Source: Eledone cirrhosa
Lineage: Eukaryota
Direction of reading: 5' to 3'
Length of the DNA: 64,000 bases
Assembly: GCA_964016885.1 (NCBI GenBank)
Contig: OZ024742.1
Span: 286,874,001 to 286,938,000, forward strand
The notes beneath the pieces are model-generated. The model was not told the origin of the DNA, did not search any database, and saw nothing but the letters and a program-made list of their open reading frames with translations. Of the stretch, positions 6,483 to 63,889 are shown in pieces. Made by a program: the position numbers and the translations under genes. Position 1 is the first letter of the stretch; every line of letters starts with the position of its first letter.

Positions 6483-6956
6483 AATAGGATATCGCTTCAA
6501 GCATAGCTTTATACAATATGTATAAATATTTTGTATCTTCAAAGATATACGGTTTTAGGAAGCCGTAGCTATGCAAACACCGGGGGGCTAACGCTCTCTG
6601 GTGATGTCCAGCAGAAGCAAGAGGGACAACCGTCTATGCATTTCAGGCTTAACTGGCCTTCGTCAGGACGGTCCCTCCCACCGCCTGCGACTACTGGACT
6701 AGAAGACAGCTGAGAATATATACTTTTCTCGTCTGTGTAAATGAGGTGATTAATCTCATTTGCATATAAAGCTGCATAAGTTGGCTCAACTTATAATAAA
6801 AAAAGAAATAGGATTTCGCTTCAAGCATAGCTTTATACAATATTTATAAATATTTCGTATCTCCAAAGAAATACGGTTTTAGGAAGCCGTAGCTATGCAA
6901 ACACCGGGGGGAGGGGGGCTAACGCCCTCTGGCGATGTCCTGCAGAAGCAAGGGGG

Positions 6957-13304: not shown

Positions 13305-13855
13305 ATATCGACCCAGTAAATGACTGGTACTTTATTTTATCGATCGACTCCGGAAGGTTGGAAGGCAAAGCTAAACTCAGCAGGGTTTGAACTCAGAATG
13401 TTGAAGGTTCTAAGTAAATAATTGTTTCTACTTTTTGGCACAAGGCCAGCTATTACTGCAGTGTATTACTGGTACTTTATTTTATCGACCCCGTAAAGAT
13501 GAAAGGCAAAGTTAACCTCGGCGGGATTTGAACTCAGAATGGCAAGGGCCGTAACTCAATGCGTGATAGCATGGCGTCCGACCTTCTACCGATACTGCCA
13601 ATCCACCGCCCTAAGGTTCTAAGTAAATAATGGTTTCTGTTTTAGACACAAGGCCAACGATATTGAGAGATGGGGAAAGTCGATTAAATCAACCTCAAAC
13701 ACAGTGTATTACTGGTACCTTATTTTATCGACCCTGTGAGGATGAAAGGCAAAGCTAACTTCGGCGGGATTTGAACTCAGAACGTAAAGGGCCGTAAATA
13801 TATGTCGCAAAGCATGTTGTCCGGCGCTCTACCGATACTGCCAATCCATCGCCCT
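13305..13855 (-). mobile_element. Cluster of three head-to-tail SINE copies; the middle one is full length with a 19-bp TSD
   Basis: Bodies at about 13305-13403, 13423-13612 and 13632-13855. TSD AAGGTTCTAAGTAAATAAT at 13404-13422 and 13613-13631. Confidence 0.9.
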
Positions 13856-14049
13856 TAGTTATGTAAAAAAATTGATGTCTGGTGCATATTCTAAGTCTTT
13901 AATTATAAATCAATCAATCAGTCAGTAAATTGATCAATCAATGACTGCGCGTATTAATCAATAACATTATACGCGATACTAGAGAGTTGTTCTATCATCA
14001 ATTTATTTCGTTTGTATCGTTTAGCAGCCAGAAATATATATATATATAA

Positions 14050-14308: not shown

Positions 14309-14351
14309 ACAGTCCTGATGAAGGGTAATGACCCAGAAACATGTTGATTGT
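14309..14351 (+). ncRNA. Minimal type I hammerhead ribozyme, intact core
   Basis: ACAGUC-CUGAUGA-A GGGU AAUG ACCC A-GAAAC-AU-GUU^-GAUUGU. Stem I 6 bp with one G-U, stem II 4 bp after an A.A mismatch, palindromic stem III AACAUGUU. Confidence 0.78.
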
Positions 14352-14582
14352 TCCCCAATGCCAGTGTTGAACAAACGGATGACGATTTATGAAGGTACCC
14401 AGAAAAACCCCGTATCTCGGAAACCCGTACTCCGATTTATGCGAAACTAGTTTTATTCCATTTGTATTCCCATTTCAGGGGCAACTTACTTTCAAAGTAT
14501 TTCCCCATGATGCGCCGTTTTGGCTGTATTAAATTACAGACAAGCACACTATCACAGAGTTTTAGTATATATATATATATGA

Positions 14583-15297: not shown

Positions 15298-15482
15298 AGG
15301 GCGGTGGATTGGCAGTGTCGGTAGAGGGTCGGACGCCATGCTTTGACGCATAGAGTTACGGCCCTTGCCATTCTGAGTTCAAATCCCGCCGAGGTTAACA
15401 TTGCCTTTCATCTTTATGGGGTCGATAAAATAAAGTACCAGTCACGCACTGGGTAATTGCTGGCCAAAAGTAGAAACAATTA
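15298..15482 (+). mobile_element. Full-length tRNA-derived SINE (main family) with simple-repeat tail
   Basis: 5' GGGCGGTGGATTGGCAGTGTCGGTAGAG (A box), GTTCAAATCC (B box), central GCCTTTCATC..GGGGTCGATAAAATAAAGTACCAG, then an (ATC)n/(AGT)n tail. Confidence 0.9.
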
Positions 15483-15508
15483 TCATCATCATTATCATCA
15501 TCATCATC

Positions 15509-15646: not shown

Positions 15647-15667
15647 AGATAAATCTACCATATATAT

Positions 15668-15826
15668 GTGAAGGAATGTATATTTCCTCTGATAGCTTGT
15701 AATATTTTTACATAGGTCTATATGATATACATACCAACACACATATATATCCTAGAAACGATCGTAAAATGATGAATTTTTTAATATAAGGAACGTGTTC
15801 TTTGTTTTTATTCATTGTTTTTATTA

Positions 15827-15830
<4 letters not shown>
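15668..15830 (+). mobile_element. 5'-truncated relative of the 57411-57600 long-loop HHR element
   Basis: GTGAAG..ATGTATATTTC..TTGTAATAT.TTTACATAG..AGAAACGATCGTAAAAT.ATGA aligns by eye with 57435-57590. It lacks the upstream CTGAAGA core. Confidence 0.7.
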
Positions 15831-56043: not shown

Positions 56044-56151
56044 GGTATTTACCCAAAAGTTTTGAATTGATATTACGAAAAAAAATTATTTACAAGAAAC
56101 AAAATAAGAATAAGATTTGATAATGTAATTTTGATTTGATATATTACTAAA

Positions 56152-56343
56152 AATAATTGTTTCTACTCCTGGCACAAGGCCAGTAATTACCCAGTACATT
56201 ACTGGTACTTTATTTTATCGACCCCGTAAGGATGAAAGGCAAAGTTAACCTCGGCGGGATTTGAACTCAGATCGTAAAGGGACGTAACTCTTTGCGTCAA
56301 AGCAGGGCCTCCGACCCTCTACTGATACTGCCAATCCACCGCT
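56152..56343 (-). mobile_element. Full-length SINE (main family)
   Basis: Same body, ending TACTGCCAATCCACCGC. Confidence 0.9.
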
Positions 56344-56663: not shown

Positions 56664-56962
56664 AGTGTAACTAGGAGTTACTGTAGGTTCACCTGCGTGA
56701 GCACTCGATGTTTAGGTTCACTTCTGTGTCGAGGTGTAGTGCTATACAGAGTGTATTATATTAAAAAGATAACAAGGACGATTGGTTAGTCCTTCATTAC
56801 ATTTATTGGTAGGTGACGCGCGTTTCGCTACTGATCAGCTCAAGGTTCGATCTCGACGGACCCTTTAAAATGCTAGTAGAAAATATATATATATATATAA
56901 ATATATACAAATAGTGAAAACAATGAAATTAAACAAAAAACGGTTAATTCATAGTAAAACTC

Positions 56963-57123
56963 ATTATTTTACGATCGTTTCTGGGGGGGGGGGTAGTTCC
57001 CCGTATGTCCATTCTATTATTGATCTATGTAAAATATATTACAAAATATCATAGTAAGAAAATATACATACGTCTTCACTACCCGCGGGCGGTGAATTGG
57101 CAGTATCGCCGTCTTCAGAAATA
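56963..57123 (-). ncRNA. Type I hammerhead with long stem-II insert (mirror copy)
   Basis: Minus strand: UAUUU-CUGAAGA-CGG...CCA-GAAAC-GAUC-GUA^-AAAUA. Confidence 0.6.
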
Positions 57124-57379
57124 GGAGGATATATTTCTTTAAAGAAAATGTAAAGGAAGGGGTGAACAACCGAGCAAAAGACAGCAGCGTTGTGAGGAGT
57201 ACTGGGCAACCTCTCTAATGATTTCTGAGGCAAGCCAGCACAATCGCAGCGTTGCTTCGGGTGATGGCGAGGCTAATGCGCTGGAACAACCAAGCGCACT
57301 CGCGAGATTCGTCAGATACTTCTATTAGGCGAGCCGCCAGTGAAGAGAGGAACCTCGCAGTCAGCGGCCCGACCCCCCT
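57121..57379 (-). mobile_element. 3' fragment of a CRE-like (restriction-like endonuclease) non-LTR retrotransposon with a 28-bp flanking duplication
   Basis: Encodes GGVGPLTARFLSSLAARLIEVSDESRECAWLFQRISLAITRSNAAIVLACLRNH*. ATTGGCAGTATCGCCGTCTTCAGAAATA occurs at 57096-57123 and 57380-57407. Confidence 0.8.
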
Positions 57380-57410
57380 ATTGGCAGTATCGCCGTCTTC
57401 AGAAATAAAG

Positions 57411-57544
57411 ATTATTTCTGAAGACGGCGAGTAGTGAAGACGTATGTATATTTCTTACTATGATATTTTGTAATATATTTTACATAGATCAATAATAGAA
57501 TGGACATACGGGGAACTACCCCCCAGAAACGATCGTAAAATAAT
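57411..57544 (+). ncRNA. Type I hammerhead with ~100-nt insert in stem II, intact core
   Basis: AUUAUUU (57411-17) - CUGAAGA (57418-24) - CGG...CCA - GAAAC (57526-30) - GAUC - GUA^ - AAAUAAU (57538-44). Perfect 7-bp stem I and palindromic stem III ACGAUCGU. Confidence 0.72.
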
Positions 57545-57790
57545 GAGTTTTACTATGAATTAACCGTTTTTTGTTTAATTTCATTGTTTTCACTATTTGT
57601 ATTTTTGACTCTGTATACAATGAATTATATCGTTGAAAATTTTGTATTTTAAACTTTGCTTCACGACATCTTCTCCATACGGATTACATTGAGTTTTTCA
57701 TACGGCTTAGACCCTACCATTAATTGGTGGATTTATCTGTGTTATCTGTATATAAATATATATATATAAAGAGTGATGCTATACAATAGT

Positions 57791-57914
57791 TTATAAAATA
57801 GGATGAAGATCCTTAGAAACGAAAAATGAAGTTGACATCGGATTTGTATATGTATATAACATTCTGTGTCAACTTTATTTTCCGTTTTTAATTATCTTTT
57901 CACCCTATTTTATA
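57791..57914. repeat. Degenerate inverted repeat
   Basis: TATAAAATAGGATGAAGA..AAACG.AAAAT.AAGTTGACA pairs with TGTCAACTTTATTTTCCGTTT..TCACCCTATTTTATA. Confidence 0.65.
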
Positions 57915-57948
57915 TATATATATATTCATTTTATTAAGGCTAAATAAT

Positions 57949-58146
57949 TGTTTCTACTTTTGCCACAAGACCAGCAATTACTCAGTACATTACTGGTACT
58001 TTATTTTATCGACCCCGTAAGAATGAAAGGCAAAGTTAACCTCGACAGGATTTGAAGTCGCCGAGGTTAACGTAAAGGGACGTAACTATGCTAGAAAGCA
58101 TGGCGTCCAACCCTCTACCGTTACTGCCAATTCACCGCCCGTGAAT
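57949..58146 (-). mobile_element. SINE with 15-bp TSD and a small internal inversion
   Basis: TSD TTAAGGCTAAATAAT at 57934-57948 and 58147-58161. Confidence 0.88.
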
Positions 58147-58166
58147 TTAAGGCTAAATAATCAGTC

Positions 58167-58212
58167 TTGTTACTCTGGAGTTTCGCCTGTTTATTACAAG
58201 GTCATCAGACAA
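58167..58212 (-). ncRNA. Type I hammerhead ribozyme, intact core
   Basis: Minus strand: UUGU-CUGAUGA-C CUUGU AAUAA ACAGG C-GAAAC-UCCAGA-GUA^-ACAA. Stem I 4 bp, stem II 5 bp after a C.C mismatch, near-palindromic stem III ACUC-CA-GAGU. Confidence 0.75.
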
Positions 58213-58464
58213 CAACGAACGTTTCAATACCAGACAGTATAAGTAAAGGATGACTCAAGGAGAGGCAGGGGTTTATTTAAGGAGTGGTAATTAAGATAGG
58301 GTGGACAGGGTGGTGTTGGAAGTGGGGGAGACTAGGGATATGTGAAAAAGAAGGTGATAATGAGTGGTAGTTGACATAGCCATAGAATTTTAACTGGTCA
58401 GTCGAAGGCAGGTGATGAATGCAAAGGTGGGTGTATACACCCACTTTCACATTCACTGACCAGT

Positions 58465-59717: not shown

Positions 59718-59986
59718 GAGACGTTTGGGGGAATCGGGCCGCTGACTGCGAGGTTCCTCTCTTCACTGGCGGCTCGCCTAATAGAAGTATCTGACGAATC
59801 TTGCGAGGGCGCTTGGTTGTTCCAGCGCATAAGCCTCGCCATCACCCGAGGCAACGCTGCGAGTGTGCTGGCTTGCCTCAGAAATAATTAGAGAGGTTAC
59901 CCAGTACTCCTCACGATGCTGCTGTCTTTTGCTCGGTTGTTCACCCCTTCCTTTACATTTTCTTTAAAGAAATATATCCTCCTATA
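59718..59986 (+). mobile_element. Second CRE-like 3' fragment (RLE C-terminus plus 3' UTR)
   Basis: 59718-59891 reads ETFGGIGPLTARFLSSLAARLIEVSDESCEGAWLFQRISLAITRGNAASVLACLRNN*, matching the ET.G..G...LFQRIS.A..RGNAA motif. Nearly identical to 57121-57379 and ends AATATATCCTCCTATA. Confidence 0.82.
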
Positions 59987-60444: not shown

Positions 60445-60569
60445 ACTATTTTTTTTGTTTCCTGCTACGTCCGAATAATAATGGCAGTAACAATAATAAC
60501 AACAACAATAATAGTAATTGTTATTATTATCATTAATATTACCGTCACTATCATAATGATAAACAATAA

Positions 60570-61383
60570 TAATTGTTTCTACTTTTGGCACAAGGCCAGT
60601 AATTACTCCAGTGTATTACTGGTACTTTATTTTATCGACCCCGTAAGGATGAAAGGCAAAGTTAACCTCGGCGGGATTTGAACTCAGACCATAAAGGGCC
60701 ATAACTCTTTGCTGCAAAATAATAATAATGATCCAATGAGCAAGAATTGTATGTTACTGTGTGTGTGTATTTACATGTCTGGAATATACTAAATAACTTA
60801 CTTTCGATTATATATATACAGACACACATATAGCTTTGAGTTTGATAACTTTGACAGGTTTCGGGGCATGTCTAACTTAATAGTTGTTTCTACATTTGGC
60901 ACAAGGCCAGCAATTATCCCAGTGTATTACTGGTACTTTATTTTATCGACCCCGTAAGGATGAAAGGCAAAGTTAACCTCGGCGGGATTTGAACTCAGAC
61001 CATAAAGGGCCATAACTCTTTGCTGCAAAATAATAATAATGATCCAATGAGCAAGAATTGTATGTTACTGTGTGTGTGTATTTACATGTCTGGAATATAC
61101 TAAATAACTTACTTTCGATTATATATATACAGACACACATATAGCTTTGAGTTTGATAACTTTGACAGGTTTCGGGACATGTCTAACTTAATAGTTGTTT
61201 CTACATTTGGCACAAGGCCAGCAATTATCCCAGTGTATTACTGGTACTTTATTTTATCGACCCCGTAAGGATGAAAGGCAAAGTTAACCTCGGCGGGATT
61301 TGAACTCAGAATGGCAAGGGCTGTAACTCTTTGCTGCAAAGCATGGCGTCTGACCCTCTACCAATACTGCCAATCCACCGCCT
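60570..61383 (-). mobile_element. Three SINE copies at 311-bp spacing (tandem duplication of SINE plus flank)
   Basis: GGCACAAGGCCAG at 60587, 60898 and 61209, with near-identical spacers. The third copy is full length with TSD ATGTCTAACTTAATAGT (61179-61195 and 61384-61400). Confidence 0.9.
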
Positions 61384-63470: not shown

Positions 63471-63889
63471 TTGGCGCTCTGAAATAGCGATATTATATGA
63501 ATGTATATATAGTGTATTTTGCAATACACTGTATGCTTAATTAAAAGCATTTCGAAGACCTTATGCTATTGTTTTAGAGTAGTGACAGTCTCACTTACTT
63601 TAAATTTTCAGCAAACAGGGGAGATAAAGCTGACAGAGCTATGTTTCGTACTTATTGGTACTTATCAAAGCCAAGTACTCCACCTGTTTGCTGAAAATCA
63701 TGAATGTTTGATTCTTATAGAATTTCTAGGAATAATTAGGAACTGATTATACAGAGCGGTTGCCGGTCAAGCAGAAATTGAAAATTAGAATTGGCGCTCT
63801 GAAATAGCGATATATATATGAATAGCATAAGGTCTTCGAAATGCTTTTAATTAAGCATACAGTGTATTGCAAAATACACTATATATACA

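What the first reader, a model, noticed from the sequence alone, without database searches (positions are those of the whole stretch)
56963..57544. Hammerhead with a ~100-nt insert in stem II, present as a back-to-back pair
Seen: a perfect 7-bp stem I (AUUAUUU/AAAUAAU) brackets CUGAAGA and GAAAC-GAUC-GUA about 100 nt apart, with only CGG/CCA at the base of stem II. The inverted arm gives a second complete copy on the minus strand, and a truncated third relative is at 15668-15830. Inference: a long-loop-II class that standard short-stem descriptors would miss. The insert has its own hairpin (GGGG-AACTA-CCCC).
Basis: partly seen in the sequence, partly recalled or inferred. Interest (0 to 1): 0.75.

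Follow-up and report, generated by a model that had tools for sequence, protein, structure and literature searches.

The report
Long-armed hammerhead of a Penelope retrotransposon
The motif is the end piece of a Penelope-like jumping gene, present over 10,000 times in this genome, whose hammerhead (predicted self-cutting) RNA has one arm stretched to about 100 bases and predicted to fold as a rod kept by paired changes; the back-to-back layout is these elements' ordinary insertion pattern.

Summary
The motif is real. It is a type I hammerhead in the pseudo-LTR of a Hydra-clade Penelope-like element. The long helix II is the family norm: 10,781 exact genome matches to a relaxed long-form pattern, and 3,889 long versus 2 short with matched strict patterns. 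In five subfamilies the insert is predicted to fold as one 97-115-nt rod (z -3.8 to -6.9) with G-C/A-U swaps, while the 11 core nucleotides stay identical. Published Hydra-clade hammerheads have 12-26 nt there; Rfam misses this one. The proposed GGGG/CCCC hairpin is not conserved. The back-to-back pair is an ordinary 5' inversion; its minus copy carries two extra insertions, and read-through RNA would pair the arms. 88 of 100 consecutive copies were copied from uncut RNA, so cleavage is likely slow, dimer-dependent or protein-gated. Cleavage is untested. Boldest open reading: the rod hides the donor site of a ~420-nt leader intron. This scan has already noted long-armed Hydra hammerheads elsewhere in this genome.

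The parts
57411..57544 (+). Type I hammerhead motif, family A copy: stem I 57411-57417/57538-57544, core CUGAAGA 57418-57424, GAAA 57526-57529, palindromic stem III 57529-57536, predicted cut after A57537
57425..57525 (+). 101-nt helix II, predicted irregular rod; this copy has one G-to-A change (57430) and a 1-nt deletion versus intact copies
57442..57447 (+). GUAUGU in the 5' strand of the rod, invariant in 13 of 13 aligned copies; candidate 5' splice site (inferred, untested)
57545..57738 (+). Rest of the pseudo-LTR plus the long 'tail' end; in full elements this sequence is the 5' leader that runs on to the ORF
56908..57123 (-). Inverted, short-ended copy with complete core (C3 at 57118, predicted cut after 56970), 130-nt disrupted helix II, 5-bp stem I
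57087..57106 (+). About 20 nt matching the end of the abundant SINE-like repeat (compare 58119-58141), lodged in the minus copy's helix II
   Evidence: (I15)
57121..57378 (-). 258-bp piece of an unrelated repeat, 95.7% identical to 59728-59985 and sharing that copy's private junction; likely copied from the neighbour; flanked by a 28-nt direct repeat (57096-57123, 57380-57407)
57380..57430 (.). Head-to-head inversion junction: reverse complement of the ribozyme's first ~18 nt, then the plus copy
56894..56907 (+). Left copy of a tentative 14-nt target-site duplication in a TA-rich target (right copy 57749-57762); low complexity, so tentative
15664..15826 (+). 5'-truncated copy of sister family B1, starts inside helix II, no CUGAAGA

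Best explanation
This is the pseudo-LTR hammerhead motif of a high-copy Hydra-clade Penelope-like retrotransposon, with helix II lengthened to a predicted ~100-nt rod that is kept by compensatory changes and that likely still lets the RNA cut itself, but slowly and only as a dimer or with protein help. Shown here: the motif follows the 3'UTR of an RT plus GIY-YIG ORF with the Hydra-clade motifs, lies about 350 nt before the start codon in tandem copies, keeps its core across five subfamilies, and most genomic copies include sequence on both sides of the cut site. Inferred: transcription starts near the first base of stem I; the 2-bp palindromic stem III needs a second molecule to form an 8-bp helix; a competing pairing of the core strands holds the monomer off; the conserved internal loops of the rod (C.C mismatch near the base, distal loop) serve as contact sites. 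The window locus itself is a dead, ORF-less insertion in the known inverted form, and a read-through RNA would pair the two arms and silence both motifs.
For: Carrier: family A copies L009/L091, L106 and L092 run from the EN C-terminus through the 3'UTR into the motif. Ten sister-family ORFs of 806-817 aa all show RWR, DKT, CxCX5C, CxxC..E and N..CxH; YRDD is present in 9 of 10. These match the Hydra-clade diagnosis (Craig 2021, section 11). Norm of the family: 3,889 long versus 2 short matches; 10,781 with the relaxed pattern. Structure: insert z -3.8 to -6.9 in intact representatives of five subfamilies. In 112 distinct copies, anchored basal pairs are 95% paired versus 28% and 32% when slid by one, with G-C in A and A-U/U-A in B at positions 2, 5, 6, 7 and 10. 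6 of 26 pairs change on both sides, 97.9% of cells pair. Core 11/11 identical while helix II is 57-71% identical between A and B; the only subfamily-level core changes are at N7 and H17, the two free positions. Dimer: stem III self-duplex -10.0 kcal/mol versus +1.4 as a monomer hairpin, as described for PLE hammerheads. Off state: the active fold is 1.7-3.1 kcal/mol above the minimum with native stem I and 8.1 in the window copy. Uncut templates: 88 of 100 consecutive family A copies extend 3 nt or more upstream of the cut. Inversion: partner flagged in 52 of 100; 13 head-to-head pairs within 50 bp among the first 100 hits; known layout.
Against: No cleavage data exist, and no RNA run was available. 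The usual G10.1-C11.1 pair is replaced by C.A (108 C and 111 A of 112), which may lower activity; one published PLE motif has it (PLE-X1_cBra) but that table gives no assay. The compensatory changes are few independent events, mostly the single A/B split, and the shuffle control ignores relatedness. B3 and B5 representatives were picked with a pattern that requires the core, so only the A/B1 comparison of the 5' core is free of that bias. A PLE hammerhead from anole was dispensable for insertion in vitro, so conservation need not mean cleavage. The role of the rod is not shown by any search. No family A copy with a whole ORF was fetched; whole ORFs are from the B subfamilies.
Confidence: 0.7

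Rival explanations
1. The rod is a splicing switch. Its 5' strand holds the donor (GUAUGU) of a 409-435-nt leader intron that ends 35 nt before the start codon. Splicing would remove the 3' half of the ribozyme and both copy-end sites and give the mRNA; a folded rod would hide the donor and keep the unspliced template RNA.
For: GUAUGUAUAUU is invariant in 13 of 13 aligned copies while its partner strand drifts to G.U wobbles. In 7 full elements that keep the whole leader, it holds 8-10 upstream ATGs; removing GT..AG leaves 1, and an AG sits at -37. Penelope and Chlamys-3 have a 5'UTR intron starting in the pLTR (75 and 398 bp; Craig 2021 passage).
Against: No RNA reads. No spliced genomic copy (0 hits), which is uninformative because PLEs keep introns. 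GUAUGU is cheap in TA/TG-rich sequence. One long-ORF copy (L188) lacks the AG. Shorter hammerhead families in this genome do not all have a GT at the matching place.
Confidence: 0.2
2. The motif no longer cleaves. Core and rod are kept only as a folded binding platform for the element's RT/EN protein or for template switching.
For: C.A at the base of helix II; off-state pairing of the core strands; most copies come from uncut RNA; anole PLE ribozyme mutants still insert in vitro and no RNA ends map to the cut.
Against: All 11 catalytic positions are fixed and only N7 and H17 vary between subfamilies, the pattern of selection on catalysis. 7 of 100 copies begin within 2 nt of the cut (1.4 per nt versus 0.31 per nt inside helix II), though fold-back at stem I can also explain these.
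Confidence: 0.2
3. One reading: the two opposed copies form a functional pair, and the insert is an open loop with its own G/C hairpin.
For: Both copies have a complete core; the hairpin appears in the predicted fold of the minus copy.
Against: The copies are on opposite strands, so no single transcript has two sense motifs. In a read-through RNA 98% of the plus arm pairs with the other arm and every core base is paired. The layout is common in the family and known for PLEs. The hairpin is absent from B subfamilies.
Confidence: 0.04

Closest known systems
Hammerheads of Hydra-clade Penelope-like elements (Craig et al. 2021, PMC8557442, section 11, Files S1 and S2; includes Hydra-1_Obim)
   Same: Same carrier type (RWK/RWR, DKT, CxCX5C, CxxC and CxH, TA-repeat targets), type I motif near the 3' end, palindromic stem III, often a mismatch (mostly U.U) at the base of helix II.
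   Different: The listed Hydra motifs have 12-26 nt between CUGANGA and GAAA; here 97-115 nt in a covarying rod. The longest entry in that table is 54 nt (PLE-X1_sMoe, a plant element marked as deviating). No sequence of this family was found in that supplement (0 hits for its stem III motif).
[quoted passage not shown]
   Same: Type I, in pLTRs, extra nucleotide after A9, weak palindromic helix III, dimer model, copies in opposite strands 100-700 bp apart.
   Different: Helix II plus loop is at most about 23 nt in the 56 listed motifs, and G10.1-C11.1 is directly before G12; here an extra A faces the extra C and the arm is four to five times longer.
Poseidon_Ac (PAc) hammerhead of the green anole (Frangieh et al. 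2024, PMC11167929)
   Same: Ribozyme at the pLTR-ORF junction, two copy-end sites giving a 'tail', uncut RNA as main template.
   Different: There the ORF starts inside stem II and the tail is 30-40 nt; here the start codon is about 350 nt after the cut and the two 3' ends are roughly 135-150 nt apart. PAc was shown to cleave with protein help; this one is untested.
Inverted pLTR insertion units of EN+ PLEs (PMC8557442 Fig. 2 legend; PMC3846280)
   Same: 5'-truncated inverted copy joined head to head, palindrome at the junction, tail on one arm only, short target duplication.
   Different: This locus has extra captured DNA (SINE head, 258-bp neighbour-derived piece) at the junction.

Membership tests
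Hydra-clade PLE | Single ORF, RT followed by C-terminal GIY-YIG EN | tested here: met
   806-817-aa ORFs in B copies with YRDD and IVY..YIG; Pfam GIY-YIG below its cut-off at E 0.0017 for family A and 0.014 for B. Pfam finds no RT domain; the RT call rests on motifs that match the printed Hydra alignment.
Hydra-clade PLE | RWK motif and DKT in place of DKG | tested here: met
   RWR at 37 and DKT at 115 in 10 of 10 ORFs; R for K in the first motif.
Hydra-clade PLE | CxCX5C linker; CxxC and CxH around the conserved E and N | tested here: met
   10 of 10 B ORFs; family A fragments show the same linker and CxxC.
Hydra-clade PLE | Insertion into (TA)n | tested here: met
   3' flanks of most of 30 sampled copies and of this locus are TA runs.
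Hydra-clade PLE | Phylogenetic placement with reference Hydra RTs | not tested
   Reference sequences were only seen in a paper supplement; no tree was built.
Neptune-clade PLE | CX2-5CxxC linker and DKG | tested here: not met
   Linker is CxCX5C and the motif is DKT. My first label, Neptune, was dropped.
Type I hammerhead ribozyme | Core C3 U4 G5 A6 N7 G8 A9, G12 A13 A14, A15.1-U16.1, H17 | tested here: met
   Window copies; 11/11 across five subfamilies; 36 of 52 full-length family A copies, sampled without regard to the core, keep it intact.
Type I hammerhead ribozyme | Three helices around the core, open at stem I | tested here: met
   Stem I 94% paired versus 43-56% slid, with U-A/U-G/C-G variation; helix II 95%; stem III 2 bp or 8 bp as dimer.
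Type I hammerhead ribozyme | R10.1-Y11.1 pair closing helix II next to G12 | tested here: not met
   C.A opposition in nearly all of 112 copies, first pair one step out. Natural exceptions exist: U.U in an active ribozyme (PMC3088659 passage), U.U and C.A in PLE tables. So this is filed as a variant.
Type I hammerhead ribozyme | Loop I-loop II tertiary contact | tested here: inconclusive
   Terminal loop II is about 45 nt away along the rod; a conserved C.C mismatch at position 4, shared with 26-32-nt families, could substitute, but nothing tests it.
Type I hammerhead ribozyme | Site-specific self-cleavage | not testable with these tools
   No assay; genomic footprint at the cut is weak and confounded (7 of 100).
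Non-LTR retrozyme | Non-coding tandem monomers each with a hammerhead | tested here: not met
   The motif is attached to a coding element and occurs here as an inverted pair.

The most novel reading that the evidence does not exclude
The 100-nt arm is a sorting switch: it hides the 5' splice site of the element's leader intron inside helix II of the ribozyme, so each transcript becomes either a spliced, ribozyme-less mRNA or an unspliced template that keeps the ribozyme and both reverse-transcription start sites. This would explain why Penelope-like elements keep their introns in every genomic copy and what their hammerheads are for.
Probability: 0.2. Interest if true: 0.78.

Novelty: new variant of a known kind. 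Interest (0 to 1): 0.42.

Why it matters
Descriptor and Rfam searches cap helix II, so more than 10,000 hammerhead motifs in one genome go uncounted, and some PLE families reported as lacking a canonical hammerhead may hold long-armed ones. A young family with intact ORFs and natural variants of the arm gives ready material to test what PLE hammerheads do, which is an open question. The back-to-back pair itself adds nothing new.

Tried and rejected
Rfam: nothing at gathering score in the window; only weak unrelated hits at E up to 10 in 56900-58300. One-off insertion in an otherwise short hammerhead: rejected, only 2 short-form matches and both look like internal deletions. Insert itself as a self-contained intron ending at the AG of AGAAAC: no genomic copy with that junction among the 2 short forms; not testable further. 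Spliced leader copies: 0, uninformative. Expression: no RNA holder listed; three contig sets of unrecorded kind from one sample were laid and show no GT..AG joint, which is no evidence either way. Neptune clade: rejected on motifs. Pfam and PDB sequence searches of the long ORF gave nothing useful. The MAFFT alignment misplaces the middle helix of family A, so RNAalifold misses it; I used end-anchored counts instead and left that helix out. In one search, 9 of 121 distinct motifs were dropped (insert outside 95-116 nt, or another family). A constrained dimer fold crashed and was replaced by a duplex energy. Lunse et al. 2017 on PLE hammerhead variants is not held, so I could not check it for long helix II forms. 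Literature searches that found no description of a ~100-nt helix II in PLE hammerheads; the library lacks most subscription journals.

Full report
OBSERVATION. The plus-strand motif is as described: stem I 57411-57417/57538-57544, CUGAAGA 57418-57424, a 101-nt insert, GAAAC-GAUC-GUA 57526-57537. The minus copy has a full core but a 130-nt insert and a 5-bp stem I. The two arms are 96% identical over 182 nt. Rfam finds no hammerhead here at the gathering score or up to E=10.

IT IS A REPEAT FAMILY. The window lies in a 3.0-Gb animal genome (G000); the host looks octopus-like to me from recalled repeat sequence, which no call tests. A DNA search gave 1,551 candidates, of which 40 were scored, at 94-100% identity (family A). 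The relative at 15664-15826 belongs to a sister family, B1 (524 candidates, 40 scored), whose intact copies carry the whole motif. Exact pattern counts: 2 matches with a 1-30-nt gap, 3,889 with a 90-120-nt gap, and 10,781 with a relaxed pattern that admits more subfamilies; the reversed controls give 0. Gaps of 31-89 nt and above 120 nt were not counted.

THE CARRIER. Upstream of family A copies lie a 3'UTR and the C-terminal part of an ORF with a cysteine linker and a GIY-YIG-like domain. A protein search found many long open frames. Of 20 such loci fetched, I checked 10 for motifs: 806-817 aa, RWR, DKT, CxCX5C, CxxC and CxH in all 10, YRDD in 9. These are the diagnostic features of the Hydra clade of Penelope-like elements (PMC8557442, section 11 read whole). 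I first called it Neptune; earlier scan notes pointed to Hydra and the motif test confirmed it. In tandem copies the predicted cut lies 345-361 nt before the start codon.

THE ARM. Intact representatives of five subfamilies (A, B1, B2, B3, B5; my labels) fold their 97-115-nt insert as one rod, z -3.8 to -6.9, with 0 of 300 shuffles as stable. The layout is shared: C.A at the base, 2 bp, a C.C mismatch, a basal helix, an internal loop, a middle helix, then a short helix, an internal loop and a terminal hairpin. Counting pairs from the two core ends without alignment in 112 distinct copies gives 95% pairing versus 28% and 32% for slid controls, with G-C in A where B has A-U or U-A. On a 13-sequence alignment, 6 of 26 pairs change on both sides. 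These are few independent events. The 11 core positions are identical in all five subfamilies while the arm is 57-71% identical between A and B; subfamily-level changes fall at N7 and H17. Other hammerhead families in my loci have inserts of 13-18, 20-36, 43-51, 61-62, 82 and 95 nt, and many of the 26-32-nt ones share the C.C mismatch, so this family is the long end of a gradient.

THE PAIR. Of 305 exact matches to an anchor just after the cut, I examined the first 100. A simple motif test flags an inverted partner in 52; both arms of a pair count. In the relaxed search, 13 head-to-head pairs start within 50 bp among the first 100 hits. This is the known inverted 5'-truncated copy (PMC8557442 Fig. 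2 legend; PMC3846280 passages). Here the plus arm has the long 3' end and the minus arm the short one, matching the two end classes in 30 copies. A tentative 14-nt target duplication flanks the unit. The junction holds a 258-bp piece 95.7% identical to 59728-59985 that shares that copy's private junction, so it was likely copied from the neighbour. A read-through RNA folds the arms together and pairs every core base.

HOW IT LIKELY WORKS. 5' ends of the 100 copies: 12 run into the 3'UTR, 37 fall at -139 to -116 from the cut (peak of 12 at the first base of stem I; 4 of these are SINE insertions at that spot, not true ends), 32 inside helix II, 7 in stem III, 7 within 2 nt of the cut, 5 just after it. 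So 88 of 100 were copied from uncut RNA. The peak suggests an RNA 5' end at stem I. A CCAAT-type ATTGG lies 68-84 nt upstream in 14 of 15 copies checked, and AATAAA lies just upstream; start site and poly(A) site are both possible, and neither is tested. The monomer is predicted off: stem III costs +1.4 kcal/mol as a hairpin but gives -10.0 as a duplex, and the active fold is 1.7-3.1 kcal/mol above the minimum, 2.3-5.0 if the RNA starts at stem I. This fits the low, dimer-dependent activity of PLE hammerheads (PMC4209133, parts 1-2 of 4) and the protein-assisted, dispensable cleavage of the anole element (PMC11167929, parts 1-2 of 4). The small excess of ends at the cut may be a trace of cleavage, but most are inversion joints at the self-complementary stem I.

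BOLDEST READING. An invariant GUAUGU in the rod and an AG 37 nt before the start codon would define a 409-435-nt leader intron and remove all but 1 of 8-10 upstream ATGs (7 elements). Related elements have such an intron. No RNA data were available, so this stays at about 20%.

COMPARISON WITH PRINT. Hydra-clade motifs in File S2 of PMC8557442 have 12-26-nt inserts, the longest entry of the table 54 nt (supplement part 2 of 59 and term searches). The 56 motifs in Fig. S3 of PMC4209133 reach about 23 nt (supplement parts 1-2 of 3). 'Long helix II' in viral motifs means 6-8 bp (PMC13725137 passages). Also seen as passages only: PMC3088659, PMC6765202, PMC10085705, PMC13282606; part 1 of 5 of bioRxiv 10.64898/2026.07.22.740005, whose supplements are closed. 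Lunse et al. 2017 was not available and may list long variants. Seven searches found no ~100-nt helix II in a PLE hammerhead.

VERDICT. A real, structurally conserved new variant of a known kind. Interest 0.42.

Noticed in passing
window 14309-14353 (+), 58208-58171 (-), near 6666 (-), near 63668 (-): Four more short hammerhead-type motifs of other families, the last with a U3-A8 core; none reaches an Rfam gathering score.
   Followed up: partly
L062, L080, L217, L219, L241, L270; window copies at 56149-56342, 57940-58140, 60565-61382, 13409-13858, 15298-15483: An abundant ~190-nt SINE-like repeat whose ATT-ending end is repeatedly found joined to the ATTATT of stem I of this element: a possible insertion hot spot.
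   Followed up: partly
L064, L069, L197 (43-51 nt); L028, L089, L094, L142, L218 (61-62 nt); L087 (82 nt); L155 (95 nt): Unrelated hammerhead families with long helix II, several with C.A or U.U at its base.
   Followed up: partly
L004, L017, L106, L178, L183, L185 and others, 68-84 nt and about 15-20 nt before stem I: ATTGG and AATAAA are kept in all subfamilies although the surrounding 3'UTR diverges: promoter and/or poly(A) signals.
   Followed up: partly
L178-L197: Many copies keep intact 806-817-aa ORFs, so the B subfamilies are young and possibly active; three B3-type hits on contig C1 recur at about 6.5-6.9 kb spacing.
   Followed up: partly
window about 18000-54250: A 36-kb block of uniform composition (43% GC, strong skew) that ends in 80-bp repeats, probably a satellite array.
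   Followed up: no
window 57806-57898: A 32-bp imperfect inverted repeat just right of the insertion that draws sub-threshold miRNA-model hits.
   Followed up: no
window 59728-59985 and L033-L060: A separate high-copy repeat (2,642 candidates) of unknown type, donor of the 258-bp middle piece.
   Followed up: partly
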